A stretch of DNA of 64,000 bases from the NCBI RefSeq assembly GCF_000026545.1, contig NC_011601.1. One strand, 5' to 3'. The translations under genes were made by a program, and so were the position numbers. The notes beneath the pieces were generated by a model. The model had not been told where the DNA came from, did no database searches, and saw only the letters and a list, made by a program, of their open reading frames with translations. Shown one piece after another: positions 1,795 to 34,507 of the stretch. The stretch is from Escherichia coli O127:H6 str. E2348/69. GTDB lineage: Bacteria; Pseudomonadota; Gammaproteobacteria; Enterobacterales; Enterobacteriaceae. The stretch's first letter is position 1, and each line of letters starts with the position of its first letter.

Positions 1795-4698
<2,904 letters not shown>

Positions 4699-4796
4699 AC
4701 AACGCCGAAGATGTTTTGGCGGATTGAGAGAAGATTTTCAGCCTGATACAGATTAAATCGACAGGTCATAACGTGACGTGTTGATAAAACAGAATT

Positions 4797-4916
4797 TGCC
4801 TGGCGGCCTTAGCGCGGTGGTCCCACCTGACCCCATGCCGAACTCAGAAGTGAAACGCCGTAGCGCCGATGGTAGTGTGGGGTCTCCCCATGCGAGAGTA
4901 GGGAACTGCCAGGCAT
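4797..4916 (+). rRNA. rrfA: 5S ribosomal RNA
   Basis: 120-nt sequence TGCCTGGCGGCC...GGGAACTGCCAGGCAT matching enterobacterial 5S. Confidence 0.95.
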
Positions 4917-4930
4917 CAAATTTAGCGAAA

Positions 4931-4957
4931 GGCCCAGTCGGAAGACTGGGCTTTTTT
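4931..4957 (+). terminator. Rho-independent terminator of the rRNA operon
   Basis: GC-rich hairpin GGCCCAGTC-GGAA-GACTGGGC followed by TTTTTT. Confidence 0.8.
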
Positions 4958-5018
4958 GCGTTGGTGCGGAATAAATACCGGATGCGACGCTGGCGCGTCT
5001 TATCCAGCCTACTTTTGC

Positions 5019-5546
5019 TTATCCGTCCTGCTTTTGCATCCACTCCACCACAAAATCAGCCAGCCCCTCAACATCATTAATATCCAGTAACGCGACATCA
5101 AGATTAAGCGGCACATCACTGGCTACAGCAATAACATGCCTGTCTATCACTAATTCTTCCGGTCGATGTCCGGCTCCATCGCGAAACAGCACAATCTTTG
5201 CGATCTCTTCATGCTTAAACCCTTCGACCAGAATCAAATCCAGCTTTGAGGTATCCATTCGACTTGCGAGAAAATGTAGATCCAGCTCTTCTTCGTCTGG
5301 TGTTTCCGTCATCAAGGCCCATCGTTGCTGGCTGGCAACGATGGTTTGTGCCGCGCCAGCCTTGCGCAGCTCATAGCTATCTTTGCCTGGCTTATCAACA
5401 TCCATATCATGGTGCGTATGCTTAATCAGCCCTGGACGGATCCCTCTGGCGCATAATGCCGGGATCAGTTTTTTCAAAAGCGTAGTTTTTCCGGTACCAC
5501 TCCACGCGGCAAAGGCGAGTAACGGTATCATCGTTTTTCCTGCCAT
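5019..5546 (-). CDS. mobB: Molybdopterin-guanine dinucleotide biosynthesis adapter protein MobB (P-loop GTPase)
   Basis: 175-aa ORF with Walker A (SGTGKTTL); recognised MobB sequence; overlaps mobA start as in the mobAB operon. Confidence 0.9.
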
Positions 5547-22412: not shown

Positions 22413-24236
22413 GTGATCGAAAAATTGCGTAATATCGCCATCATCGCGCACGTAGACCATGGTAAAACCACCCTGGTAGACAAGCTGCTCCAACAATCCG
22501 GTACGTTCGACTCTCGTGCCGAAACCCAAGAGCGCGTGATGGACTCCAACGATTTGGAGAAAGAGCGTGGGATTACCATCCTCGCGAAAAACACCGCTAT
22601 CAAATGGAATGATTACCGTATCAACATCGTTGATACCCCGGGGCACGCCGACTTCGGTGGTGAAGTTGAACGTGTAATGTCCATGGTAGACTCAGTGCTG
22701 CTGGTGGTTGACGCATTTGACGGCCCGATGCCGCAAACGCGCTTCGTAACCAAAAAAGCGTTTGCTTACGGCCTGAAGCCGATTGTTGTTATCAACAAAG
22801 TTGACCGCCCTGGCGCGCGTCCTGATTGGGTTGTGGATCAGGTATTCGATCTGTTCGTTAACCTCGACGCGACCGACGAGCAGCTGGACTTCCCGATCGT
22901 TTACGCTTCTGCGCTGAACGGTATCGCGGGTCTGGACCACGAAGATATGGCGGAAGACATGACCCCGCTGTATCAGGCGATTGTTGACCACGTTCCTGCG
23001 CCGGACGTTGACCTTGACGGTCCGTTCCAGATGCAGATTTCTCAGCTCGATTACAACAGCTATGTTGGCGTTATCGGCATTGGCCGCATCAAGCGCGGTA
23101 AAGTGAAGCCGAACCAGCAGGTTACTATCATCGATAGCGAAGGCAAAACCCGCAACGCGAAAGTCGGTAAAGTGCTGGGCCACCTCGGTCTGGAACGTAT
23201 CGAAACCGATCTGGCGGAAGCTGGCGATATCGTGGCGATCACGGGTCTTGGCGAACTGAACATTTCTGACACCGTTTGCGACACGCAAAACGTTGAAGCG
23301 CTGCCGGCACTCTCCGTTGATGAGCCGACCGTTTCTATGTTCTTCTGCGTTAACACCTCGCCGTTCTGCGGTAAAGAAGGTAAGTTCGTAACGTCTCGTC
23401 AGATCCTGGATCGTCTGAACAAAGAACTGGTACACAACGTTGCGCTACGCGTAGAAGAAACCGAAGACGCCGATGCGTTCCGCGTTTCTGGTCGTGGCGA
23501 ACTGCACCTGTCTGTTCTTATTGAAAACATGCGTCGTGAAGGTTTCGAACTGGCGGTATCCCGTCCGAAAGTAATCTTCCGTGAAATCGACGGTCGTAAA
23601 CAAGAGCCGTATGAAAACGTGACGCTGGACGTTGAAGAACAGCATCAGGGTTCTGTGATGCAGGCGCTGGGCGAACGTAAAGGCGACCTGAAAAACATGA
23701 ATCCAGACGGTAAAGGCCGCGTACGTCTCGACTACGTGATCCCAAGCCGTGGTCTGATTGGCTTCCGTTCTGAGTTCATGACCATGACTTCTGGTACTGG
23801 TCTGTTGTACTCCACCTTCAGCCACTACGACGACGTACGTCCGGGTGAAGTGGGTCAGCGTCAGAACGGCGTACTGATCTCTAACGGTCAGGGTAAAGCG
23901 GTAGCGTTCGCGCTGTTCGGTCTGCAGGATCGCGGTAAGCTGTTCCTCGGTCACGGTGCTGAAGTTTACGAAGGTCAGATTATCGGTATTCACAGCCGCT
24001 CTAACGACCTGACTGTAAACTGCCTGACCGGTAAGAAACTGACCAACATGCGTGCTTCCGGTACTGACGAAGCCGTTGTTCTGGTTCCGCCTATCCGCAT
24101 GACTCTGGAACAAGCTCTGGAGTTCATCGATGATGACGAGCTGGTAGAAGTGACTCCGACCTCTATCCGTATTCGTAAACGTCACCTGACGGAAAACGAT
24201 CGTCGTCGCGCCAACCGCGCACCGAAAGACGATTAA
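22413..24236 (+). CDS. typA: Ribosome-associated translational GTPase BipA/TypA
   Basis: 607-aa ORF with EF-G-like GTPase motifs ([18 protein letters not shown]). Confidence 0.95.
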
Positions 24237-24259
24237 TTTCGTTTTTTAGTCATAAAAAA

Positions 24260-24285
24260 CCTGCCAGCGATGGCAGGTTTTTTTT
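24260..24285 (+). terminator. Rho-independent terminator downstream of typA
   Basis: Hairpin CCTGCCAGCGATGGCAGG followed by an 8-nt T-run. Confidence 0.8.
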
Positions 24286-24342
24286 GGCTTATGGAAAACA
24301 AAATCCGCTGAAATTCCCAGCGGATTTTCCGAAGTTTCAATT

Positions 24343-25131
24343 TCAGGATACTTCTTGCTCGGCAACCACCAGTTCAACATTCTCTTCACTTAACAACTGG
24401 CAGAAAGAATTGGGAGGTGGGGCATCAGTAAAAAAAGCCCTGACATTCCGTGCATTGCCAATTGAAACGGCAGCAGACGCGGTAAACTTCGTATGATCGG
24501 CCACTAACAATGTATTCCGCGCATGTTTAATCATCGTTCTCGCGACTAACGCTTCATTGACATCAAATTCCAGCAGGGTGCCGTCATGTTCAATGGCACC
24601 TATACTGGTGATTAAATAATCTGCGCGGAAGCCTTCAATAAAATCCACGGCTCCTGGGCCGATAATCCCACCGTTATGAGCGCGTAAAGTGCCTCCCGGC
24701 ACCATCACTTCAATATCCTGATTCTTATAAAGAATCTGTGCCACACGCAGGCTATTAGTGATAATGCGTAAATCACGCCGGTTGAGTAATGCCCTGGCAA
24801 CGGCTTCTACGGTTGTACCGATGGTGATAAAGACGGTACAGCGTTCGGGAAGGTAATCGGCGACTGCCTCAGCGATCGCCCGTTTCTCGGCGGTGAGCGA
24901 AAGTTCCCGTTGCTCAAAAGCGGTATTCATGACGCTGGAGACGCGCCCGGCCCCTCCATGATGACGGGTGATCAAGCCCTGCTCACTGAGTTTTCGGATA
25001 TCCCGGCGCACGGTTTGCGTTGAAACATCCAGCAGTTGTGCCAGTTCTTCAATATTCATATAACCGCGTTCTGCGATTAGATGAACGAGTTGGTCATGGC
25101 GTGGATTACCTGTCACTGCGATGATACTCAT
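24343..25131 (-). CDS. DeoR-family transcriptional repressor, CsqR/YihW-like
   Basis: 262-aa ORF with N-terminal HTH (LLDVSTQTVRRDIRKLSEQGLI) and DeoR C-terminal sugar-phosphate binding domain; similar to, but clearly diverged from, E. coli K-12 YihW as I recall it. Confidence 0.8.
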   Translation of the reverse strand: MSIIAVTGNPRHDQLVHLIAERGYMNIEELAQLLDVSTQTVRRDIRKLSEQGLITRHHGGAGRVSSVMNTAFEQRELSLTAEKRAIAEAVADYLPERCTVFITIGTTVEAVARALLNRRDLRIITNSLRVAQILYKNQDIEVMVPGGTLRAHNGGIIGPGAVDFIEGFRADYLITSIGAIEHDGTLLEFDVNEALVARTMIKHARNTLLVADHTKFTASAAVSIGNARNVRAFFTDAPPPNSFCQLLSEENVELVVAEQEVS

Positions 25132-25170
25132 GAATACTCCCTTGCCCCTCCTCGGTAGATGTTTACCATT

Positions 25171-26067
25171 TTACGCATAAAGTGACAAAAATGATTCGGT
25201 TTGCTCACGATTAGGAATGCCGGCCCGACCGCCAGGCTGGGTACATTTCATCGCGGCAACCGCACTGGCAAAACGAATAGCCTCTTTTGTTGGCATTTTT
25301 TCTGCCAACGCTACCGCGAGTGCGCCGTGAAAAACATCGCCTGCTCCAGTGGTATCAACCACATTGACAGAAAATGCCTCCTGTTGACACAAATGACCAT
25401 CTTCAATCCACAACGATCCTTCAGAACCCAGCGTAACATACACTTTACCTGCTGTTTGTGTCGTTGCCTGGAACAAACCTTCTTCAGGTGACTGCAGGCC
25501 AGTCATGCGTTTCAGCCCTGGTGTTGAGAACACGGCGTGATCGGCAAGCGCGACAAGTGGAGAAATATCCTGCGGTGTCATATCGGCGTCTAAAAGCGTT
25601 GTCACACCCGCAAGGCGCGCTAGCGAGAATGCTTTTTCAGTACCGCTATGCCAGCGAACATCGGCCAGAATCAGATCATAACGAGAGAAATCGATCGCTT
25701 CTAACCATTCGGCATCAGTACCGAGATCAGGACTTGGATAATTAACGATAATCCGTTCGCCATGCTGATCAACGAGGATCGCTGATTGCGACGAACGGGC
25801 GTTAGGATATCGGCGGCAAAATGCGGTATTGACGCCCCAACCCTCAAGTTCTGCAAGTAAGGTATTTCCACAACTGTCATCGCCGACGCGACCGATGAAA
25901 TCAACCTCCACGCCAAGCTTTGCGATTGCAACAGCGGCTGTTGCTGCCGGGCCGCCACCAATCTCAAGATAATGATTTGCCTGATATTTCCCGCCACCCT
26001 CCGGCAGAGTGGGCAAAGAATAAATTCTGTCCTGAACTGTGATACCCACGCATGCAATTCTGGTCAT
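25171..26067 (-). CDS. PfkB-family sugar kinase, YihV (sulfofructose kinase)-like
   Basis: Ribokinase/PfkB motifs ([12 protein letters not shown] near the C-terminus); 298 aa from the internal ATG at 26067 ([11 protein letters not shown]...); the longer 315-aa track ORF would overlap the divergent neighbour. Confidence 0.8.
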
Positions 26068-26239
26068 ATTTGTCTTGTCCTGTTTAATTTTGTCGTCTTT
26101 GGTCAATTTAAATGACACAAATGATCAAATTAGTGATGCGTGTCGTGTTTTTGAACATAAATTACAAATATGCTCAAAAACAGACGAAAACGAATTTTCA
26201 ATTGTCATTATTTTGTCAATGTCAGACAGGAGAGTATTC

Positions 26240-27118
26240 ATGGCAACCATTGCATTTCTCGGGCTGGGGCAGATGGGTAGCCCAATGGCTAACAATCTAT
26301 TGCAAAAAGGGCATTCATTGCAGGTATTTGATGTCAATACACAGGCCGTCGATGCGCTAGTTACGCAGGGGGCCACTGCGGCACAAACCCCAGCGGAAGC
26401 GGCAGCAAGCGCTGAATTTATCATCACTATGCTTCCCAATGGGGACATTGTTCGACAGGTGCTGTTGGGGGAAAAAGGCGTCTGTGAAACTGTTTCATCT
26501 GACGCGTTATTGATTGATATGTCGACTATTCATCCCTTACAGACCGATGCATTAATACGGGAATTACAAGAAAAAGGCATCAATATGATGGACGCCCCCG
26601 TGGGCAGAACGTCAGTGAATGCGATTGATGGCACATTGCTGATTTTAGCGGGCGGCACTGATGAGCAGATTGCGCGTGCACGCCCGATTCTCATGTGCAT
26701 GGGTAATGAGCTGGTCGAGGCTGGCGGCCCAGGAATGGGGATCCGCGTGAAGCTAATTAACAACTATATGAGCATTGCGCTTAATGCGCTGTCCTCCGAA
26801 GCCGCTGTGTTATGTGAGTCACTGGGATTAAATCTTGATGTCGCAATTAAGGTGATGAGTGGTACGGCAGCAGGGAAAGGACATTTTACGACCACCTGGC
26901 CTGGCAAAGTGCTGAAAGGCGATCTTTCTCCCGCCTTCATGGTGGACCTGGCATTGAAAGATCTGCGTATTGCAGTTGACGTCGCTCGGGAAACGGGGGC
27001 GCCGCTCAATATGGGGATTGCAGCAGAAAGTTATTACGCCGCAGCAAGTCAAGACGGCAAAGGGCGGCAGGACTGGAGCGCCCTGCTAAATCAGGTTCGC
27101 CAGCAGGCTGGTCTTTAA
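26240..27118 (+). CDS. NAD(P)-dependent beta-hydroxyacid dehydrogenase, YihU (sulfolactaldehyde reductase)-like
   Basis: Rossmann motif at the N-terminus ([17 protein letters not shown]) typical of the HIBADH/GarR/YihU family; ATG at 26240 preceded by an AGGAGAG Shine-Dalgarno. The 359-aa track ORF is an upstream extension. Confidence 0.8.
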
Positions 27119-27142
27119 TTTTATCTATTAACAGGAGTTTCT

Positions 27143-28030
27143 ATGTCATCCCACTTCACCCCATTTACGCTGAAAGATATCTCCCGCCCAGGTGGTGGAT
27201 TCGCCATGTTAGCTGTCGATCAGCGTGAGGCCATGCGCCTGATGTTTGCGGCAGCAGGGCAGCCAAAACCCATCGCCGACAGTGTACTCACCGATTTTAA
27301 AGTTGCCGCGACCCGAATCCTTTCTCCTTATGCTTCTGCCGTTCTGGCGGATAAACAATTTTGTCTTGAACAAATAGTCGAGCAGGGCGCTGTGGCTAAT
27401 TCTTGCGGCCTGATTGTCGCTGCCGATCTTTTTATCCCAGGTAATGGCATCCCGGTTGATAGCGTTGAAATAGATATGTCCGTCGACCCGCATAAAGCCC
27501 GTGAAATGGGGGCTAAGGCAATGAAATTACTTGTACTCTGGCGTGAAGATGAACCCGCAGAGGAACGTCTGGCAATGGTTGATAAATTTGTTCGTCGCTG
27601 CCGTAGTGCCGGGCTGGTTAGCATTATTGAACCTGTGGTGCGTCCACCTCGTCGCGGTTGGGACTTTGATCGTGAAAGCGCCATTGTTGCCGCCGCCGCA
27701 GAGCTTGGTGGAACAGAGGCTGATCTTTACAAAGCCGAGATGCCATTAGGGGGCAAAGGCGATGAAAAAACCTTACTTGCCGCCTGTCAGCAACTTAACG
27801 ATCAGATGAAGATGCCGTGGGTAATTCTTTCTTCTGGCGTTGATGCCGATATTTTTGGCCGTGCAGTAAGTATTGCCATGAAAGGTGGTGCGTCGGGCTT
27901 CCTGGCTGGACGAGCGGTTTGGGCGTCGGTTGTTGGTGCACAAGATCCACAAACCATGCTGCGCGATGTCTCCGTTCCACGCTTGCAACGGCTGGCTGAA
28001 ATTGTCGATGAAGGTATCGCGCAACGCTAA
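27143..28030 (+). CDS. Class I aldolase, YihT (sulfofructose-phosphate aldolase)/LacD-like
   Basis: 295-aa ORF (…[15 protein letters not shown]…, IEPVVRPP) homologous to YihT/tagatose-bisphosphate aldolase; diverged from the K-12 YihT sequence as I recall it. Confidence 0.8.
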
Positions 28031-28062
28031 TCCCCTATGGATATCGATTCTGGAGAATAACA

Positions 28063-29073
28063 ATGGATAAAATTACCCAGGTTTTATTTTCAGATATTGG
28101 GAAAGTCACCACTCAATATGTTGAAGTACCACACCAGCAACTTAAACCGCACGAAGTACGGATTGCGCCCGTGTTCTACGGGATATGCGGTTCGGATCTG
28201 CATGTTCTGAAAGGCGGTCATCCGTTTGCCAAACCGCCTGTCGTCCCCGGTCATGAAATTGCAGCGCGCGTTACGGAAGTGGGCAGCGACGTTAAAAATG
28301 TACAGCCGGGCGATCATGTTGTGGTCGATCCCATCATGGCTTGCATGGAATGCCGAGCCTGCAAAGCAGGACGTTTTAATCTTTGTGAACCACCGCAGGT
28401 TGCTGGTTTTCGCGCACCGGGCTTTGCTCGCTCACAACACATTGTTCCTGCGCGTAATTGCCATGTCGCACCAGCCTCTTTACCGCTAAAAGTGTTGGCC
28501 TTTGCCGAACCGGCGGCTTGTGCTCGTCACTGCGTTAACCGAATGCCGAAAGCTTCTCTGGAAAGCGTACTGGTGATTGGTGCCGGAACGATAGGCTTAT
28601 CCATCGTGCAGGCACTGCGCATTATGGGGGCAGGTAAGATTACCGTGATTGAACCTGACGCTGCCAAACGCGCGCTGGCGTTAAAACTGGGCGCAGCAGA
28701 AGTTTGGGCACCAGGTGAGCTGGCCGCAGATGTGCGATTTACGGGGGCGATTGATGTCGTTGCAGCGCAGGCCACGCTTAACGATGCATGTACCCGTGTA
28801 TATGCCGGAGGCACCGTCGTGTGCATGGGCGTACCAAGTGGGCCGCGTGAAATACCATTACCGATGATGCAACGTTTCGAGCGTGACTTGCTCAACTCTG
28901 GCATGTACATCCCTGAAGATTTCGATGCTGTTATCGAATGGCTGGCGGATGGGCGGTTTGATACCAGTGAACTGGTTACCGATTTATTTGCCATTGAGGA
29001 TGCAGCGGCGGCATTCGAACGCGCGCAGCAAAATGACTCCATAAAGGTCATGCTGCAATTTGCGCCGGAATGA
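28063..29073 (+). CDS. Zn-dependent medium-chain alcohol/polyol dehydrogenase (sorbitol/threonine dehydrogenase-like)
   Basis: 336-aa ORF with catalytic-zinc motifs GICGSDLH and PGHE, structural-zinc Cys cluster (CMECRACKAGRFNLC) and Rossmann GAGTIG. Confidence 0.8.
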   Translation: MDKITQVLFSDIGKVTTQYVEVPHQQLKPHEVRIAPVFYGICGSDLHVLKGGHPFAKPPVVPGHEIAARVTEVGSDVKNVQPGDHVVVDPIMACMECRACKAGRFNLCEPPQVAGFRAPGFARSQHIVPARNCHVAPASLPLKVLAFAEPAACARHCVNRMPKASLESVLVIGAGTIGLSIVQALRIMGAGKITVIEPDAAKRALALKLGAAEVWAPGELAADVRFTGAIDVVAAQATLNDACTRVYAGGTVVCMGVPSGPREIPLPMMQRFERDLLNSGMYIPEDFDAVIEWLADGRFDTSELVTDLFAIEDAAAAFERAQQNDSIKVMLQFAPE

Positions 29074-29142
29074 TTTTCTAAATCTCTGTCTGGCGCTGCG
29101 TCACGTCAGCGCCACCCTACAACAATTAAAAAGGACACTGCG

Positions 29143-30576
29143 ATGAGTCAAATCACCAGTCCTGAAACTTATTCAATTAGTCGGCCACAGGACGTAATTG
29201 ATATTGTTAATAAGAACTCTGCAATCAACACCAGTATCGGCGTTATTTTTATTGCTTTGGGCGGCATATTGATTGATGCCTACCAGGCGGCGATGGTGGG
29301 GTTTGGTAATAAATACATTGCCGCTCAATTCGGCATTTCGCCGGGTCTTGCTGCAACCGTCAATGCATCAGTATTAATCGCCGCGTTAATTGGCGGTTTA
29401 TTAGCGAACCGAGTAATAAACCGCTTTGGGCAAAAGCGGGCATTTATTATTGGCATGGGGCTGTGCACCATCGGTGCTGCAGCGGTAGCTATTGCTCCCA
29501 GTATCTGGTGGGTGCTGGTGTGCCGCGTCATCATGGGCTTTGGTTTAGGCATCGACTTCCCTTTGGCAACCAATGCCGTGGCAGAGCTTCGTGGTTCAAC
29601 GTCGAAGAAAACCGGAACGTCGGTCAACCTCTGGCAAATGGCCTGGTATGTTTCGACAACCGTTGTTTATTTGGTGCTTTTGCCGCTGCTTCTGTCGGGT
29701 ATCGCTGAAGAACAATTGTGGCGTTACGGAATATTCATCGGAGCTATTTTTGCAGTCATCTTCATGATTTTGCGTTACTTCTTTATTGGTGAATCCGCAA
29801 TGTGGGCCGCACGCGTCGGGCGTTACCAGGAAGCGTGCGACATTCTGGGAAAACGTTATGGTGTTCAGGCTCGCGTTGCGGCATCGGGTACAACAGAAGC
29901 GAAATTCTCGGAAAAAGCAGAGAATAAATACAGTGGTGGATATGGCATCTTATTTAATGATCGTTACCGCAAACGCACCATTCTTGGCTGTGTCGTGGCA
30001 ACCATGCAGGCGTGGCAATATAACGCCGTAGGTGTTTATCTTCCTCTTACGTTGGCGGGAATAATAAGTGGCGGGCTTACTGGCGCGTTGACCGGTTCTG
30101 CCGTCGTGAATGCCCTTTGTGGGGTGACAGGCGGGATGATCGGCTCGTTTATTCTCCAACGACTGGGTACTCGCCGACAGTCGATGTATGGATTTGCTGT
30201 TGTGACCTTAGCATTGCTGTCGTTAGGCGCACTGGCAACGACTAATCCCTGGCTGTCTTTAGGGTTATTGGGATCAATTATTTTCTTCCATTCAGCGGGT
30301 CCTGGTGGGCTGGGCATGACCATTGCCACACTCTCTTATCCTCCCGCTATTCGCCCTACTGGGGTCGGATTTGCCCGCGCTATTATGCGCACAGGGGCAA
30401 TTGCAGGACTCATTTTCTGGCCGATGCTGTGGGGTGCGTTGAAAACTGAAGCGTTTTACTGGTTGGCAATCGTGCCATTCCTGGGATTCCTGACCTGTGT
30501 ATTGATTAATTGGGAACCACTGGGTGCAAATGTTGATGCTGAGGACGCAGAGGTTCTGGCTGAATTGAAGAAATAA
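29143..30576 (+). CDS. MFS transporter (12 predicted transmembrane segments)
   Basis: 477-aa highly hydrophobic ORF with MFS-like loop motifs (ANRVINRFGQKRAF); substrate unknown. Confidence 0.7.
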   Translation: MSQITSPETYSISRPQDVIDIVNKNSAINTSIGVIFIALGGILIDAYQAAMVGFGNKYIAAQFGISPGLAATVNASVLIAALIGGLLANRVINRFGQKRAFIIGMGLCTIGAAAVAIAPSIWWVLVCRVIMGFGLGIDFPLATNAVAELRGSTSKKTGTSVNLWQMAWYVSTTVVYLVLLPLLLSGIAEEQLWRYGIFIGAIFAVIFMILRYFFIGESAMWAARVGRYQEACDILGKRYGVQARVAASGTTEAKFSEKAENKYSGGYGILFNDRYRKRTILGCVVATMQAWQYNAVGVYLPLTLAGIISGGLTGALTGSAVVNALCGVTGGMIGSFILQRLGTRRQSMYGFAVVTLALLSLGALATTNPWLSLGLLGSIIFFHSAGPGGLGMTIATLSYPPAIRPTGVGFARAIMRTGAIAGLIFWPMLWGALKTEAFYWLAIVPFLGFLTCVLINWEPLGANVDAEDAEVLAELKK

Positions 30577-30579
30577 TTT

Positions 30580-30609
30580 AATGCGCATCGGTTTAAGCCG
30601 ATGCGCATT
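30580..30609. other. Perfect 12-bp-stem inverted repeat between the two MFS genes (possible terminator or operator)
   Basis: AATGCGCATCGG-TTTAAG-CCGATGCGCATT directly after the stop codon of the first MFS gene; no strong T-run follows. Confidence 0.5.
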
Positions 30610-30674
30610 AATTCAAACTGCCCACGTTTAGTGGTTCGTATCCCAGATTTCTCGCCTACCAGGAGAGGAAAATT

Positions 30675-32024
30675 ATGTCTGAAAAGTTACCCGCACCGCG
30701 TGAAGGGCTTTCCGGTAAAGCCATGAGACGTGTCGTTATGGGCAGTTTCGCAGGCGCGTTAATGGAATGGTATGACTTCTTTATTTTTGGCACGGCAGCA
30801 GGACTGGTATTTGCACCGCTGTTTTATCCAGACAGCGATCCTTTTATAGGTCTTATAGCTTCCTTTGCGACCTTTGGTGTCGGTTTTCTGACTCGTCCTT
30901 TAGGTGGCATCGTCTTTGGTCATTTTGGCGATAAAATAGGGCGAAAAATAACGCTTATCTGGACGTTGGCTATTGTCGGTTGCTCCACATTTTTGATTGG
31001 TTTTATTCCGACGCATCAGGAAATTGGGATCTGGGCACCGCTCATATTAATGGTGCTACGTTTAATTCAGGGCTTTGGTCTTGGTGGCGAGTACGGCGGA
31101 GCGGCATTGATGACCATAGAATCAGCGCCCGAATCCCGACGCGGATTTTTAGGTTCACTCCCGCAAACGGCTGCGTCTGTGGGTATTATGCTGGCAACCG
31201 GTATTTTTGCTCTCTGTAACCATTTTCTGACTTCGGAGCAGTTTCTCTCCTGGGGATGGCGCATTCCGTTTTGGCTTTCTGCGGTGATGTTGATCGTTGG
31301 GCTGTTTATCCGCCTGCATACCGAAGAAACGCTGGATTTTCAAAAGCAAAAAACGACGAATAATAAAGAAAAGCCCGTTCCTCCGTTGATTGAATTATTC
31401 AAAAAACATCCACGAAATATTTTATTGGCACTGGGTGCGAGGCTGGCGGAAAGTGTCTCCTCTAATATTATTAACGCCTTTGGTATTGTCTATATTTCCA
31501 GCCAATTAGCATTGTCGCGAGATATTCCCCTGACGGGTATGTTGATTGCCTCGGCGATCGGTATTTTCAGTTGTCCATTGGTTGGATGGTTATCAGATCG
31601 TATAGGTCAAAAAAGTCTGTATTTGTCGGGAGCAGGATTTTGTGTCCTGTTCGCGTTTCCTTTCTTCTTATTACTGGATAGCAAAAGTACGCTCATCATC
31701 TGGTGCAGTATGATCCTCGGCTACAACTTAGGTCCGACGATGATGTTTGCCGTGCAGCCAACACTTTTCACCCGCATGTTCGGTACCAAAGTACGATATA
31801 CCGGCCTTTCTTTTGCTTATCAATTTTCCGCGATTCTTGGCGGACTAAGCCCCCTTATCGCCTCAAGTTTGCTGGCGCTAGGGGGAGGAAAACCGTGGTA
31901 TGTCGCTCTGTTTTTATTTGCTGTCTCAGTTCTTTCCTTTGTTTGCGTCTGGCTGATTGAGCCGACCGATGAACAAGAAACCGCTTCTTACTGCTACATC
32001 AGGGAACAATCTCATGAAAACTGA
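30675..32024 (+). CDS. MFS metabolite:H+ symporter (MHS family, ProP/KgtP-like)
   Basis: 449-aa ORF with the characteristic MHS motif GHFGDKIGRKITL and 12 hydrophobic segments. Confidence 0.75.
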   Translation: MSEKLPAPREGLSGKAMRRVVMGSFAGALMEWYDFFIFGTAAGLVFAPLFYPDSDPFIGLIASFATFGVGFLTRPLGGIVFGHFGDKIGRKITLIWTLAIVGCSTFLIGFIPTHQEIGIWAPLILMVLRLIQGFGLGGEYGGAALMTIESAPESRRGFLGSLPQTAASVGIMLATGIFALCNHFLTSEQFLSWGWRIPFWLSAVMLIVGLFIRLHTEETLDFQKQKTTNNKEKPVPPLIELFKKHPRNILLALGARLAESVSSNIINAFGIVYISSQLALSRDIPLTGMLIASAIGIFSCPLVGWLSDRIGQKSLYLSGAGFCVLFAFPFFLLLDSKSTLIIWCSMILGYNLGPTMMFAVQPTLFTRMFGTKVRYTGLSFAYQFSAILGGLSPLIASSLLALGGGKPWYVALFLFAVSVLSFVCVWLIEPTDEQETASYCYIREQSHEN

Positions 32025-32901
32025 ACGAAAAAACGAGCATTACCTGGCGCTACAACAGGCGTTTGACGCGCCATGGCCTGGGCCTGTAGGAGAGTTAGTG
32101 ATGCTGGAAAAAGGCAATATTCACCTGCAGATTTATCCGCATGATGGTGCCAGGATAACCTCGTTAAAGGCATTTGGTTCTGAAGTATTACGCCAATGGC
32201 AGCCGCAGCGCAGAGCTTTTCAGTATAGCTGTTTCCCAATGGTGCCGTGGGCAGGGCGACTGGGGAATGCGACGCTGAATGCTGGTGGGCAATGTTATTC
32301 TTTACCCGCCAATAAACCACCACATGCGTTGCATGGTATGGCTTGTTACTCAACGTGGGAAATCATCGACAAAACAGCAGATTCCCTGACTTTACGTATG
32401 CCCCTGGCTTCACCGTGGCCCTGGCAAGGGGAAGTGATTCAGACTTTTTTGCTGGAGAACGATGCGCTGGTTTTGCAACTGGAAGTCCATTCATATGCCG
32501 ATACATTCCCGGCCTCCGCAGGCTGGCATCCGTGGTTTGCGAAAAAGCTGACTCCGCAAAATACAGAATCGTTGCAGGTGCTTTTTGATGCGGACTGGCA
32601 AGAAGAAGCGGGTAGTGATGAACTGCCAACTGGAAATCGTATCTCTCCTCAAGTTGGTCCCTGGGATGACTGTTTTGGTTTTTATGACGGGGTGAAGGTT
32701 AAGTTACTGTGGCCTGGTAAACTCGCGATGACCATGACCTCTTCTGCAAACAGTCTGGTGGTATTTGATAAACAGCCCGATGCCACCTGTATTAACCCAC
32801 TGACTCAGGCACCTAACGCAATAAATCTAACGCCGGAATTTGTGACACCAGATAAGCCGCTGGTCATCGAAACTCGTTGGCAATTTACACCTGAATCTTA
32901 A
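32014..32901 (+). CDS. Aldose 1-epimerase (mutarotase) family protein, YihR-like
   Basis: About 295 aa from the ATG at 32014 (MKTERKNEHYLALQQ...) preceded by an AGGGAA Shine-Dalgarno; start overlaps the stop of the upstream MFS gene (ATGAAAACTGA), suggesting translational coupling. Mutarotase-like fold is inferred from sequence character only. Confidence 0.65.
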   Translation: MKTERKNEHYLALQQAFDAPWPGPVGELVMLEKGNIHLQIYPHDGARITSLKAFGSEVLRQWQPQRRAFQYSCFPMVPWAGRLGNATLNAGGQCYSLPANKPPHALHGMACYSTWEIIDKTADSLTLRMPLASPWPWQGEVIQTFLLENDALVLQLEVHSYADTFPASAGWHPWFAKKLTPQNTESLQVLFDADWQEEAGSDELPTGNRISPQVGPWDDCFGFYDGVKVKLLWPGKLAMTMTSSANSLVVFDKQPDATCINPLTQAPNAINLTPEFVTPDKPLVIETRWQFTPES

Positions 32902-33041
32902 CCATTCATCTATTGCGAAAAAGCCAGTGAAATTACTCTGCTTTTTCGCAATCAGCATCACAAGATTACCCTTATTGCCACATAGCCAAACCCATCCTTT
33001 CCCGCTACAGTTAATTTCTTGTGGCGCGAAAGGAGGCAAAA

Positions 33042-33641
33042 ATGCTCTATATCTTTGATTTAGGTAATGTGATTGTCGATATCGACTTTAACCGTGTGCT
33101 GGGGGCCTGGAGCGATTTAACGCGTGTTCCACTGGCTACGCTTAAGAAGAGTTTCCACATGGGCGAGGCGTTTCATCAGCATGAGCGTGGGGAAATTAGC
33201 GACGAAGCGTTCGCAGAGGCACTGTGTCATGAGATGGCCCTGCCGCTAAGCTATGAGCAGTTCTCCCACGGTTGGCAGGCGGTATTTGTTGCGCTACGAC
33301 CGGAAGTGATCGCCATCATGCATAAACTGCGTGAGCAGGGGCATCGCGTGGTGGTGCTTTCCAATACTAACCGCCTGCATACTACCTTCTGGCCGGAGGA
33401 ATACCCGGAAATCCGTGATGCTGCTGACCATATCTATCTGTCGCAAGACTTGGGTATGCGCAAACCTGAAGCACGAATTTATCAGCATGTTTTGCAGGCA
33501 GAAGGTTTTTCACCAGACGATACGGTCTTTTTCGACGATAACGCCGATAATATAGAAGGAGCTAATCGGCTAGGCATTACTAGTATTCTGGTGAAAGATA
33601 AAACCACCATCCCGGACTATTTCGCGAAGGTGTTATGCTAA
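33042..33641 (+). CDS. yihX: HAD-family alpha-D-glucose-1-phosphate phosphatase YihX
   Basis: 199 aa from the ATG at 33042 ([13 protein letters not shown]..., HAD motif I DxGxV) with an AGGAGG Shine-Dalgarno. Confidence 0.85.
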
Positions 33642-34507
33642 AAACCATTCAGGACAAAGCCAAGCATCGTACCCGTCCACTATGGGCCTGGCTAAAACTA
33701 CTCTGGCAACGCATTGATGAGGACAACATGACAACCCTGGCAGGTAACCTTGCCTATGTGTCGTTGCTCTCATTAGTGCCGCTGGTTGCCGTTGTTTTTG
33801 CGCTTTTCGCCGCTTTTCCCATGTTTTCCGACGTCAGCATTCAGTTGCGTCACTTTATTTTTGCCAACTTTCTGCCTGCTACTGGCGATGTTATCCAGCG
33901 ATATATCGAACAGTTTGTCGCCAATTCCAACAAAATGACCGCCGTCGGGGCGTGCGGGCTGATCGTCACGGCGTTATTGTTGATGTACTCCATCGATAGC
34001 GCGTTGAATACCATCTGGCGCAGTAAACGAGCGCGACCCAAAATTTACTCGTTTGCCGTGTACTGGATGATTTTAACGCTGGGGCCGCTGTTGGCAGGGG
34101 CCAGTCTGGCGATCAGCTCCTATCTGCTCTCTCTGCGCTGGGCGAGCGATCTCAATACTGTCATCGATAATGTGTTGCGTATTTTTCCGCTGCTGTTGTC
34201 GTGGATCTCTTTCTGGCTGCTGTACAGCATCGTTCCTACCATCCGTGTACCTAACCGCGACGCGATTGTCGGCGCGTTTGTCGCCGCGCTCCTGTTCGAA
34301 GCAGGAAAGAAAGGTTTCGCGCTTTATATCACCATGTTCCCATCATATCAGCTCATTTACGGTGTGCTGGCGGTGATCCCCATTCTCTTTGTTTGGGTCT
34401 ACTGGACATGGTGTATCGTCTTGCTTGGCGCGGAAATTACTGTCACTCTCGGGGAATACCGCAAATTAAAACAAGCTGCTGAACAAGAAGAAGACGACGA
34501 ACCATGA
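33635..34507 (+). CDS. yihY: YihY/BrkB family inner membrane protein
   Basis: 290-aa multi-pass membrane ORF; synteny yihX-yihY-dtd. Confidence 0.85.

What the first reader, a model, noticed from the sequence alone, without database searches (positions are those of the whole stretch)
32014..32024. Start/stop overlap between the MHS transporter and the mutarotase gene
The sequence ATGAAAACTGA places the mutarotase ATG (32014) 8 nt before the transporter stop (TGA, 32022-32024), implying translational coupling and co-expression of uptake and anomer conversion. This supports treating 28063-32901 as one functional unit with the yihU/yihT homologs.
Basis: seen in the sequence. Interest (0 to 1): 0.2.

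Follow-up and report, generated by a model that had tools for sequence, protein, structure and literature searches.

The report
Ordinary gene overlap in yih-variant operon
The 11-base overlap between a transporter gene and the following epimerase-family gene is real and the upstream ATG is the true start, but such overlaps are routine in bacterial operons, this one is already annotated, and related species do not keep it.

Summary
The window is E. coli E2348/69. ATGAAAACTGA sits at 32014-32024 as described, and RefSeq annotates the same 11-nt overlap. A rival downstream start (ATG 32101, with a stronger AGGAG) is rejected. ATG 32014 is invariant across genera. The motif AFDxPWPGP, encoded between the two candidates, is conserved in about 100 of 112 homologues. 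Third-codon-position wobble starts right after the junction (p=1e-4). ATG 32101 is private to this strain. The junction is identical in 1336 of 1339 E. coli genomes that carry it.

In 18 homologous clusters, 5 have the 11-nt overlap, 2 have about 4 nt, and 11 have gaps of 1-38 nt. The transporter's C-terminal tail is unconstrained. The epimerase start is therefore fixed, while the transporter stop has shifted position between genera. Co-transcription is well supported by synteny. Translational coupling is plausible but untested and clearly not a conserved requirement. Six of about 25 co-directional junctions nearby also overlap.

The labels need care. The "mutarotase" has Asn where mutarotases have their catalytic Glu, and the transporter could be an importer or an exporter. 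Side finding: the published "truncated short yih cassette" is really a conserved eight-gene cluster that keeps the sulfonate-binding residues. Its substrate is unknown.

The parts
32014..32024 (+). 11-nt start/stop overlap, ATGAAAACTGA. It holds the epimerase ATG (32014-32016) and the transporter TGA (32022-32024).
   Evidence: The 41-nt junction is identical in 1336/1339 E. coli genomes that carry it.
30675..32024 (+). MFS transporter gene, MHS-like, 449 aa. The last ~24 codons encode an unconstrained C-terminal tail that runs through the epimerase ribosome-binding site.
   Evidence: NCBIfam TIGR00883 scores 404 bits, below the 443 cut-off; Pfam MFS_1/Sugar_tr. The tail varies equally at all codon positions: 22/24, 21/24, 22/24.
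32014..32901 (+). Gene for an aldose-1-epimerase-fold protein, 295 aa. His107 and His172 are present; Asn261 occupies the catalytic-Glu position.
   Evidence: Pfam PF01263 77.6 bits. AF2 model pLDDT 92.3. Best structural match 3nre, TM 0.77. Catalytic positions.
32001..32005 (+). Shine-Dalgarno-like AGGGA, 8 nt upstream of ATG 32014 and inside the transporter coding sequence.
   Evidence: Anti-SD duplex -5.1 kcal/mol. CAG[GA]GAA is partly conserved in Enterobacteriaceae, even where the transporter has already terminated.
32059..32091 (+). Codons 16-26 (AFDAPWPGPVG). This conserved N-terminal motif lies upstream of the rival start.
   Evidence: F17 100/112, W21 107/112, P22 103/112, G23 107/112, P24 106/112. 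Model pLDDT block means 85-92.
32088..32103 (+). Rejected rival initiation site: AGGAG (32088-32092) followed by GTG 32098 / ATG 32101.
   Evidence: Stronger SD of -7.3 kcal/mol. However, ATG 32101 is ACG in other E. coli and in Escherichia sp., and GTG 32098 is GTA/ATC/ATT/GTT in other genera. Met at residue 30 occurs in only 5/112 homologues.
26240..28030 (+). yihU-like SLA reductase (26240-27118) and yihT-like class I aldolase (27143-28030), the first genes of the + strand operon.
   Evidence: They are 72% and 67% identical to K-12 YihU and YihT. Sulfonate-pocket residues are retained.
28063..30576 (+). Zn-dependent dehydrogenase (28063-29073) and first MFS transporter (29143-30576).
   Evidence: Syntenic in 17 of 19 related loci.
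30578..30611 (+). Conserved stem-loop directly after the MFS1 stop, in the 98-nt gap before the MHS-like gene.
   Evidence: 14-bp palindrome. Consensus structure of 10 pairs, 4 with compensatory changes across 9 Enterobacteriaceae loci.
24343..26067 (-). Divergently transcribed yihW-like DeoR regulator (24343-25131) and yihV-like PfkB kinase (25171-26067).
   Evidence: They are 71% and 67% identical to K-12 CsqR and YihV. The KRN sulfonate triad is kept.
24289..32974 (.). Whole variable cassette. It replaces K-12 yihL-yihM-yihN-ompL-yihOPQRSTUVW between typA/bipA and yihX.
   Evidence: blastn against K-12: 98.9% identity ends at 24288 and 96.7% identity resumes at 32975. yihWVUT in between aligns inverted at 65-67%.

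Best explanation
This is a routine intra-operon junction. The epimerase-family gene starts at ATG 32014 (shown). The upstream MFS gene has a non-conserved cytoplasmic tail that, in Escherichia and a few relatives, reads through the epimerase ribosome-binding site and stops at codons 3-4 of the epimerase. That produces the 11-nt overlap (shown). The two genes are transcribed together as the distal end of a yihU-yihT-ADH-MFS-MFS-epimerase operon (inferred from synteny, short spacers, and the lack of predicted signals). Ribosomes probably reach ATG 32014 in two ways: de novo, through the AGGGA SD in an unstructured A-rich region, and by local re-initiation after terminating at UGA 32022, which needs the P site to move back only 5 nt. 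The share of each route is unknown (inferred). The overlap is best read as a by-product of the transporter stop codon changing position between lineages around a fixed epimerase start, not as a conserved regulatory device.
For: True start:
- ATG invariant in the 11-sequence DNA alignment.
- 83/112 homologues start at the same column, and the motif between the two candidate starts is conserved.
- Variable columns in 32026-32097 are 11/24, 11/24 and 22/24 by codon position, Fisher p=1.2e-4.
- Residues 11-30 are confidently modelled.
- PGAP makes the same call.

Moving stop:
- Overlap of +11 in 5/18 loci (TGA in Escherichia and Mixta, TAA in C. sedlakii and Enterobacter sp. 10-1), about +4 in 2, and gaps of 1-38 nt in 11.
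- The tail varies equally at all codon positions.
- The ~30 nt before the ATG are kept in Citrobacter even though they are intergenic there.

Operon:
- Gene order conserved across three proteobacterial classes.
- Spacers of 24, 32, 69, 98 and -11 nt.
- Three promoter-like hits against 8.7 expected, and none near the junction.

Accessible start region: fold z-score 0.42; SD -5.1 kcal/mol with 8-nt spacing.

Ordinary feature: 6 of ~25 co-directional junctions nearby overlap. Literature on overlaps: PMC10666635.
Against: - No transcript or translation data for this locus were available. The Nissle RNA-seq supplement held in the library does not list these genes.
- The junction is fixed within E. 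coli (1336/1339). The +11 geometry is also shared by four other taxa with two different stop codons, so some selection for keeping the stop at that exact place cannot be excluded.
- A conserved hairpin between MFS1 and the MHS-like gene could attenuate or process the transcript, so the last two genes may be expressed at a different level from the first four.
Confidence: 0.8

Rival explanations
1. The epimerase is really translated from the downstream GTG 32098 / ATG 32101 behind the strong AGGAG. The genes then do not overlap, and 73-76 nt of spacer separate them.
For: Stronger SD of -7.3 against -5.1 kcal/mol with good spacing. The Pfam domain match begins at residue 29.
Against: - ATG 32101 is ACG in the other E. 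coli examined and in Escherichia sp., and GTG 32098 is not a start codon in other genera.
- Met30 occurs in only 5/112 homologues.
- The AFDxPWPGP motif upstream of it is conserved down to 43% overall identity.
- Coding-type wobble is seen in 32026-32097, p=1.2e-4.
- Residues 11-30 are modelled with pLDDT 85-92.
Confidence: 0.03
2. The epimerase starts further upstream, at ATG 31969 or TTG 31957, giving a 56-68 nt overlap.
For: Both codons are in frame with no intervening stop in E2348/69.
Against: - No SD: -1.9 and -1.5 kcal/mol.
- In-frame stops lie between the equivalent positions and the conserved ATG in Citrobacter R56, Enterobacter 10-1 and Trabulsiella.
- In five loci the conserved ATG is the only candidate start.
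- Only 5 of 112 homologues extend beyond Met1.
- Nucleotides there are not conserved.
Confidence: 0.02
3. The overlap is a selected device for obligatory translational coupling. It would fix a stoichiometric ratio between transporter and epimerase, so that epimerase synthesis depends on transporter translation.
For: - Junction invariant in E. coli.
- The +11 geometry recurs in Mixta, C. sedlakii and Enterobacter 10-1 with a TGA/TAA change.
- The SD is weaker on average in overlapping loci, -4.7 against -6.4 kcal/mol.
- Short overlaps are known to couple translation (PMC6728339, PMC10666635).
Against: - Eleven of 18 homologous clusters have gaps, up to 30-38 nt. In native E. coli gene pairs, gaps of that size nearly abolished re-initiation.
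- The SD difference is not significant (p=0.27).
- The start region is unstructured, so no unmasking by upstream ribosomes is needed.
- According to PMC10666635, overlaps are enriched among subunits of heteromeric complexes, which is not expected for a membrane permease and a soluble enzyme.
Confidence: 0.12
4. The two genes are separately transcribed, with the epimerase driven by a promoter inside the transporter gene.
For: One weak sigma-70-like match on the + strand at 31337-31364 (9 of 12 matches).
Against: - That hit is ~650 nt upstream. The region has fewer promoter-like hits than shuffled sequence (3 against 8.7).
- No terminator-like site lies between the genes.
- Adjacency is conserved in 18 of 20 loci with spacing of 38 nt or less.
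Confidence: 0.07

Closest known systems
Overlapping stop/start junctions of co-directional genes, coupled by termination-reinitiation (Huber et al. 2019, PMC6728339; PMC10666635)
   Same: Same strand. The downstream start lies just upstream of the upstream stop, and an SD sits inside the upstream coding sequence. The spacing is too tight for a promoter or terminator.
   Different: The overlap is 11 nt, not the dominant 4, 1 or 8 nt, and it lies outside the -8..+10 window those authors treat as predictive. The partners are a permease and a soluble enzyme, not subunits of one complex. Coupling has not been measured here.
E. coli K-12 galK-galM junction
   Same: A mutarotase-fold gene is the last gene of a sugar operon, and its start overlaps the stop of the preceding gene (7 nt in the K-12 annotation).
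   Different: There the upstream partner is a kinase and GalM has the full His/His/Glu catalytic set. Here the partner is an MFS permease and the Glu position is Asn.
K-12 'long' yih cassette (sulfo-EMP pathway, ompL-yihOPQRSTUVW)
   Same: Same chromosomal site, between typA/bipA and yihX. Homologues of yihW, yihV, yihU and yihT are present with every published sulfonate-pocket residue retained.
   Different: The proteins are only 67-72% identical and the cassette is inverted. It lacks yihS, yihQ, yihR, yihO, yihP and ompL, and instead carries a Zn-dependent dehydrogenase, two unrelated MFS genes and a distant epimerase-fold gene. PMC12608037 reports that it is not induced by sulfoquinovose in Nissle 1917.
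YihR / HsSQM sulfoquinovose mutarotases and GalM (aldose 1-epimerase family, PF01263)
   Same: Same beta-sandwich fold. The two catalytic histidines are invariant: His107 and His172 correspond to GalM His104 and His175.
   Different: Only 27% identity to YihR, over 164 residues. The general-base Glu (YihR Glu273, GalM Glu309) is Asn261 here and in 71/112 family members. This family also has an extra conserved N-terminal helix plus the AFDxPWPGP motif.

Membership tests
Start/stop-overlapping gene pair coupled by termination-reinitiation | Co-directional genes, with the downstream start codon upstream of, or within, the upstream stop | tested here: met
   ATG 32014 and TGA 32022-32024 on the same strand.
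Start/stop-overlapping gene pair coupled by termination-reinitiation | The annotated downstream start is the start actually used | tested here: met
   Comparative evidence only: invariant ATG, conserved N-terminal motif, and wobble pattern. No direct translation data.
Start/stop-overlapping gene pair coupled by termination-reinitiation | Both genes on one transcript | tested here: inconclusive
   No promoter or terminator predicted between them and adjacency is conserved. No RNA data were available.
Start/stop-overlapping gene pair coupled by termination-reinitiation | Distance within the range shown or assumed to allow efficient re-initiation (-8 to +10 nt in PMC10666635) | tested here: not met
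   The overlap is 11 nt, just outside that window. Longer overlaps were not tested in that study.
Start/stop-overlapping gene pair coupled by termination-reinitiation | Downstream translation depends on translation of the upstream gene | not testable with these tools
   Needs reporter fusions carrying premature stops in the upstream gene.
Aldose 1-epimerase / mutarotase (PF01263) | Sequence match above the curated threshold | tested here: met
   PF01263 scores 77.6 bits against a gathering score of 27. The YihR equivalog NF011719 scores only 34 against a cut-off of 251, so it is not a YihR orthologue.
Aldose 1-epimerase / mutarotase (PF01263) | Galactose-mutarotase beta-sandwich fold | tested here: met
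   AF2 model with pLDDT 92.3. Foldseek matches: 3nre E=4e-21, TM 0.77; L. lactis and human GalM TM 0.73-0.77.
Aldose 1-epimerase / mutarotase (PF01263) | Two conserved active-site histidines | tested here: met
   His107 and His172 are present in 112/112 sequences and align with GalM His104 and His175.
Aldose 1-epimerase / mutarotase (PF01263) | Catalytic general-base glutamate (HsSQM Glu254; retained in all characterised hexose mutarotases per PMC5902678) | tested here: not met
   Asn261 aligns with YihR Glu273 (hhalign probability 98%) and, through the shared QGLAxE strand, with GalM Glu309. The family has Asn in 71 members and Glu in 39.
Aldose 1-epimerase / mutarotase (PF01263) | Measured mutarotase activity | not testable with these tools
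   Needs an enzyme assay, for example EXSY NMR as in PMC5902678.
Metabolite:H+ symporter (MHS) family of MFS transporters | Score above the curated family cut-off | tested here: not met
   TIGR00883 scores 404.2 bits against a 443.45 cut-off, and the shikimate transporter model scores 408 against 538. It is clearly an MFS protein (Pfam MFS_1 and Sugar_tr) and is MHS-like. Substrate and direction of transport are unknown.
Sulfo-EMP (yih) sulfoquinovose catabolic cassette | SF kinase, SFP aldolase and SLA reductase with sulfonate-binding residues | tested here: met
   K27/N109/R138; A26/K193/S226/S227/R253; R123/N174/S178 are all retained. The YihU equivalog model scores 580 bits against a 348 cut-off.
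Sulfo-EMP (yih) sulfoquinovose catabolic cassette | SQ isomerase YihS, sulfoquinovosidase YihQ, and YihO/YihP transporters | tested here: not met
   No BLASTP match of any cassette protein to K-12 YihS, YihQ, YihO or YihP. PMC12608037 reports none elsewhere in such genomes.
Sulfo-EMP (yih) sulfoquinovose catabolic cassette | Induction by sulfoquinovose | not tested
   PMC12608037 reports no induction of the short cassette in Nissle 1917. This was not tested for E2348/69.

The most novel reading that the evidence does not exclude
The overlap itself is ordinary, but the unit it closes may not be. The 'truncated short yih cassette' could be an intact, widely distributed eight-gene pathway, present in about 25% of complete E. 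coli genomes and in Citrobacter, Mixta, Sutterella, Succinivibrionaceae and alpha- and beta-proteobacteria. It would feed an unidentified sulfonated sugar or sulfo-alditol into the SF kinase / SFP aldolase / SLA reductase steps. The entry route would use a Zn-dependent dehydrogenase in place of the YihS isomerase, assisted by an epimerase-fold protein that lacks the canonical catalytic Glu and may therefore do something other than classical mutarotation.
Probability: 0.4. Interest if true: 0.55.

Novelty: already known. Interest (0 to 1): 0.1.

Why it matters
For the finding as given, very little. It confirms a RefSeq start-codon call and shows that the overlap is a lineage-specific detail of an operon junction.

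The useful by-products are three:
1. A stronger-looking downstream SD+ATG is excluded by comparative evidence, which gives a worked example of how to separate such candidates.
2. The 'mutarotase' and 'uptake' labels should not be taken at face value.
3. The cassette recently described as a truncated, SQ-unresponsive yihTUVW remnant carries four more conserved genes and intact sulfonate pockets. That reframes it as a candidate alternative sulfosugar pathway in gut and pathogenic E. coli (B2 strains, EPEC, ST131), and this can be tested directly.

Tried and rejected
- Downstream start 32098/32101: rejected.
- Upstream starts 31957/31969: rejected.
- mRNA structure masking the start site, which would imply coupling by unfolding: no structure beyond shuffled sequences, z=0.42.
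- Compensation between overlap and SD strength across loci: the trend is not significant, p=0.27, and the loci are not phylogenetically independent.
- Internal promoter or terminator: nothing convincing.
- Known RNA families in 24000-33200: only a borderline STnc370/REP-type hit at the cassette edge.
- Expression data: the Nissle RNA-seq supplement held in the library lists none of these genes.
- Sequence search of the PDB and the hhalign comparison to GalM covered only the N-terminal half, so the Glu assignment rests on the YihR profile alignment plus the shared QGLAxE motif.
- MAFFT placed Asn261 opposite GalM Glu311 rather than Glu309, an alignment ambiguity of two residues that I resolved by the strand motif.
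- My first regex survey of the catalytic motif missed most sequences and was replaced by an alignment-based count.
- A transporter-epimerase fusion by frameshifting was considered and dropped. Relatives have 30-38 nt spacers between the two genes and nothing suggests a slippery site.
- The 2026 SQ review does not mention this cassette.

Full report
OBSERVATION. The window is E. coli O127:H6 E2348/69 (100% identity over 4839 bases). At 32014-32024 the sequence reads ATGAAAACTGA. The 449-codon ORF 30675-32024 ends at the TGA, and ATG 32014 is in frame with the ORF that ends at 32901. RefSeq/PGAP annotates exactly these two CDSs, 'MFS transporter' and 'aldose 1-epimerase', with the same 11-nt overlap.

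IS ATG 32014 THE REAL START? A scan of in-frame start codons with anti-SD duplex energies found a serious rival. GTG 32098 / ATG 32101 sits behind AGGAG (-7.3 kcal/mol), against AGGGA (-5.1 kcal/mol, 8-nt spacing) for ATG 32014. Two upstream candidates, 31957 and 31969, have no SD. Six independent lines settle the matter in favour of 32014.
1. In a 25-protein alignment reaching 43% identity (Rhodopseudomonas, Vibrio, Sutterella), the motif AFDxPWPGPxG is conserved. It is encoded at 32059-32091, between the two candidate starts.
2. Among 112 homologues, F17, W21, P22, G23 and P24 are present in 100-107. Eighty-three start at the same column as Met1. Only 5 have Met at position 30.
3. In a DNA alignment of four E. 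coli, one other Escherichia and six other Enterobacterales loci, ATG 32014 is invariant. ATG 32101 is ACG in every other Escherichia sequence, and GTG 32098 is not a start codon in other genera.
4. In the disputed segment 32026-32097, variable columns by codon position are 11/24, 11/24 and 22/24 in the frame of ATG 32014 (Fisher p=1.2e-4).
5. An AlphaFold2 model (pLDDT 92.3, pTM 0.90) places residues 2-15 in a helix. Ten-residue block means are 85 for residues 11-20 and 92 for residues 21-30, and only residues 1-4 are disordered.
6. In several relatives an in-frame stop lies just upstream of the conserved ATG, which excludes longer N-termini.

IS THE OVERLAP CONSERVED? Within E. coli it is. 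The segment 28063-32901 is present in 1384 of 5426 complete genomes, and the 41-nt junction is identical in 1336 of the 1339 genomes that carry it. Between genera it is not. A scan of one genome per species returned 19 proteobacterial loci. In 17 of them, and in the window, the MHS-like gene lies directly upstream of the epimerase gene. Counting the window, that gives 18 junctions:
- 11-nt overlap in 5: E. coli, Escherichia sp. and Mixta with TGA; C. sedlakii and Enterobacter sp. 10-1 with TAA.
- About 4-nt overlap in 2: Trabulsiella and Pleomorphomonas.
- Gaps of 1, 1, 2, 2, 4, 11, 16, 19, 30, 30 and 38 nt in 11.

The last 24 transporter codons vary equally at all three codon positions (22/24, 21/24, 22/24) and carry indels. 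By contrast, the ~30 nt before the ATG are recognisably conserved even in two Citrobacter species where the transporter has already stopped and that stretch is intergenic. The fixed element is therefore the epimerase initiation region. The transporter stop lies at different positions around it in different lineages.

MECHANISM. Co-transcription is the best-supported part.
- The array yihU-yihT-ADH-MFS-MFS-epimerase, usually with yihV alongside, is syntenic in Enterobacterales, Alphaproteobacteria, Betaproteobacteria and Succinivibrionaceae.
- Spacers in E2348/69 are 24, 32, 69, 98 and -11 nt.
- The region has fewer promoter-like matches than shuffled sequence, and nothing terminator-like lies between the two genes.

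Translational coupling is plausible. A ribosome terminating at UGA 32022 has its P site on AAC 32019-32021, so it would need to move back only 5 nt to place AUG 32014 in the P site, and the AGGGA could hold the 30S subunit (inference). Three things keep coupling unproven.
- The start region is unstructured (z=0.42 against shuffles) and has its own SD, so de novo initiation needs no help.
- Eleven nt lies outside the -8..+10 window that PMC10666635 treats as predictive of termination-reinitiation. That study found overlaps of 4, 1 and 8 nt to be the common classes and longer ones to be rare.
- Relatives with 30-38 nt gaps, a distance that nearly abolished re-initiation in native E. coli gene pairs, evidently manage without it.

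Overlapping loci have slightly weaker SDs (-4.7 against -6.4 kcal/mol), but the difference is not significant (p=0.27). Overlaps as such are commonplace here: 6 of about 25 co-directional junctions in the first 50 kb of the window overlap, including yihX/yihY (7 nt) and yihY/dtd (4 nt) just downstream. K-12 galK/galM also overlap by 7 nt.

THE FUNCTIONAL LABELS. The downstream protein belongs to the aldose-1-epimerase fold: Pfam PF01263 at 77.6 bits, and a best structural match to E. coli YphB (3nre, TM 0.77) followed by bona fide galactose mutarotases. It is not a YihR orthologue (27% identity over 164 residues; NF011719 scores 34 bits against a cut-off of 251). PMC5902678 states that all characterised hexose and SQ mutarotases keep a His/His/Glu set, with the Glu acting in acid/base catalysis. 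Here His107 and His172 are invariant (112/112). The Glu position, however, is Asn261. It aligns to YihR Glu273 by hhalign at 98% probability and to GalM Glu309 through the shared QGLAxE strand. Across the family that position is Asn in 71 members and Glu in 39. From my own knowledge, E304Q and E304A variants of L. lactis GalM are inactive; crystal structures of those mutants appear among the structural hits. 'Anomer conversion' is therefore not established. The transporter is MFS and MHS-like but scores below the curated MHS cut-off (404 against 443 bits). Because the cluster has two MFS genes, and K-12 annotates one importer and one DHPS exporter in the long cassette, its direction of transport is unknown.

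CONTEXT (outside the finding). The cassette 24289-32974 replaces K-12 yihL...csqR between typA/bipA and yihX. Its yihW, V, U and T products are only 67-72% identical to K-12's, while YihX is 98% identical. Kaznadzey et al. 2025 (PMC12608037) describe this arrangement as a truncated 'short cassette (yihTUVW)'. They report that it is inverted, enriched in pathogens, present in Nissle 1917, and not induced by sulfoquinovose. They do not mention the four downstream genes. My data show that those four genes are conserved with yihT, yihU and yihV across three proteobacterial classes. Every sulfonate-pocket residue defined by Sharma et al. 2021 (PMC8006165) is retained in the kinase, the aldolase and the reductase. 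The cluster therefore looks like an intact alternative route into the lower sulfo-EMP steps, for a substrate that is not yet identified. I did not confirm directly that Nissle 1917 carries the same four genes.

VERDICT. As a start/stop overlap it is an ordinary, already annotated feature, and I score interest at 0.1. The more interesting matter is the cassette it belongs to, which I record as noticed in passing and as the novel case.

Noticed in passing
window 24289-32974: The 'truncated short yih cassette (yihTUVW)' of PMC12608037 is really an eight-gene cluster: yihW-like and yihV-like genes, divergent from yihU-like, yihT-like, Zn-dependent dehydrogenase, MFS, MHS-like MFS and an epimerase-fold gene. 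Its order is conserved in Citrobacter, Mixta, Enterobacter, Trabulsiella, Budvicia, Pantoea, Pleomorphomonas, Telmatospirillum, Propionivibrio, Sutterella and Succinivibrionaceae. It is 67-72% identical to K-12 at the protein level. All published sulfonate-pocket residues are retained in the kinase, aldolase and reductase. The substrate is unknown.
   Followed up: partly
window 32794-32796 (codon 261 of the epimerase-fold gene): Asn replaces the catalytic general-base Glu of mutarotases (YihR Glu273, GalM Glu309). Across 112 family members the position is Asn in 71, including all of the closest relatives, and Glu in 39. The two catalytic His residues are invariant.
   Followed up: partly
window 30578-30611: A perfect 14-bp palindrome (TTAATGCGCATCGG / CCGATGCGCATTAA) sits directly after the MFS1 stop, in the 98-nt gap before the MHS-like gene. 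A 10-pair stem is conserved in nine Enterobacteriaceae loci, and 4 pairs show compensatory changes. No T-run follows on the + strand. It could be an attenuator, a processing site or a stabilising hairpin that sets a different expression level for the last two genes.
   Followed up: partly
window 32101-32103: Met30 of the epimerase-fold protein (ATG) is private to E2348/69. The other E. coli examined and Escherichia sp. have ACG (Thr). This single change, next to a pre-existing AGGAG, creates a deceptive SD+ATG that looks like a better start site than the real one.
   Followed up: yes
window 24221-24289: A hit to the enterobacterial STnc370 model (53 bits against a gathering score of 54), of the REP-hairpin type, lies exactly where near-identity to K-12 ends (24288). 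That is the left boundary of the variable cassette.
   Followed up: no
window 32912-32952: A 13-bp inverted repeat, ATTGCGAAAAAGC (32912-32924) and GCTTTTTCGCAAT (32940-32952), with a 15-nt loop lies just after the epimerase stop and just left of the right cassette boundary (32975). It is not a canonical terminator, as no T-run follows. It could be an operon-end hairpin or a protein-binding site.
   Followed up: no
window 33635-33641 and 34504-34507: The neighbouring core genes also overlap: yihX/yihY by 7 nt and yihY/dtd by 4 nt. mobB/mobA (19 nt), fdhE/fdoI (4 nt) and fdoI/fdoH (4 nt) overlap elsewhere in the window. This gives a local baseline of about one overlap per four co-directional junctions.
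   Followed up: yes
L012, L015, L016 (about 4100-5520 in each locus): In the alpha- and beta-proteobacterial versions of the cluster, a second, distant YihU-like dehydrogenase (29-31% identity) sits between the two MFS genes, and the kinase is only about 30% identical. The conserved core is therefore the aldolase, the Zn-dehydrogenase, the two MFS genes and the epimerase-fold gene.
   Followed up: no
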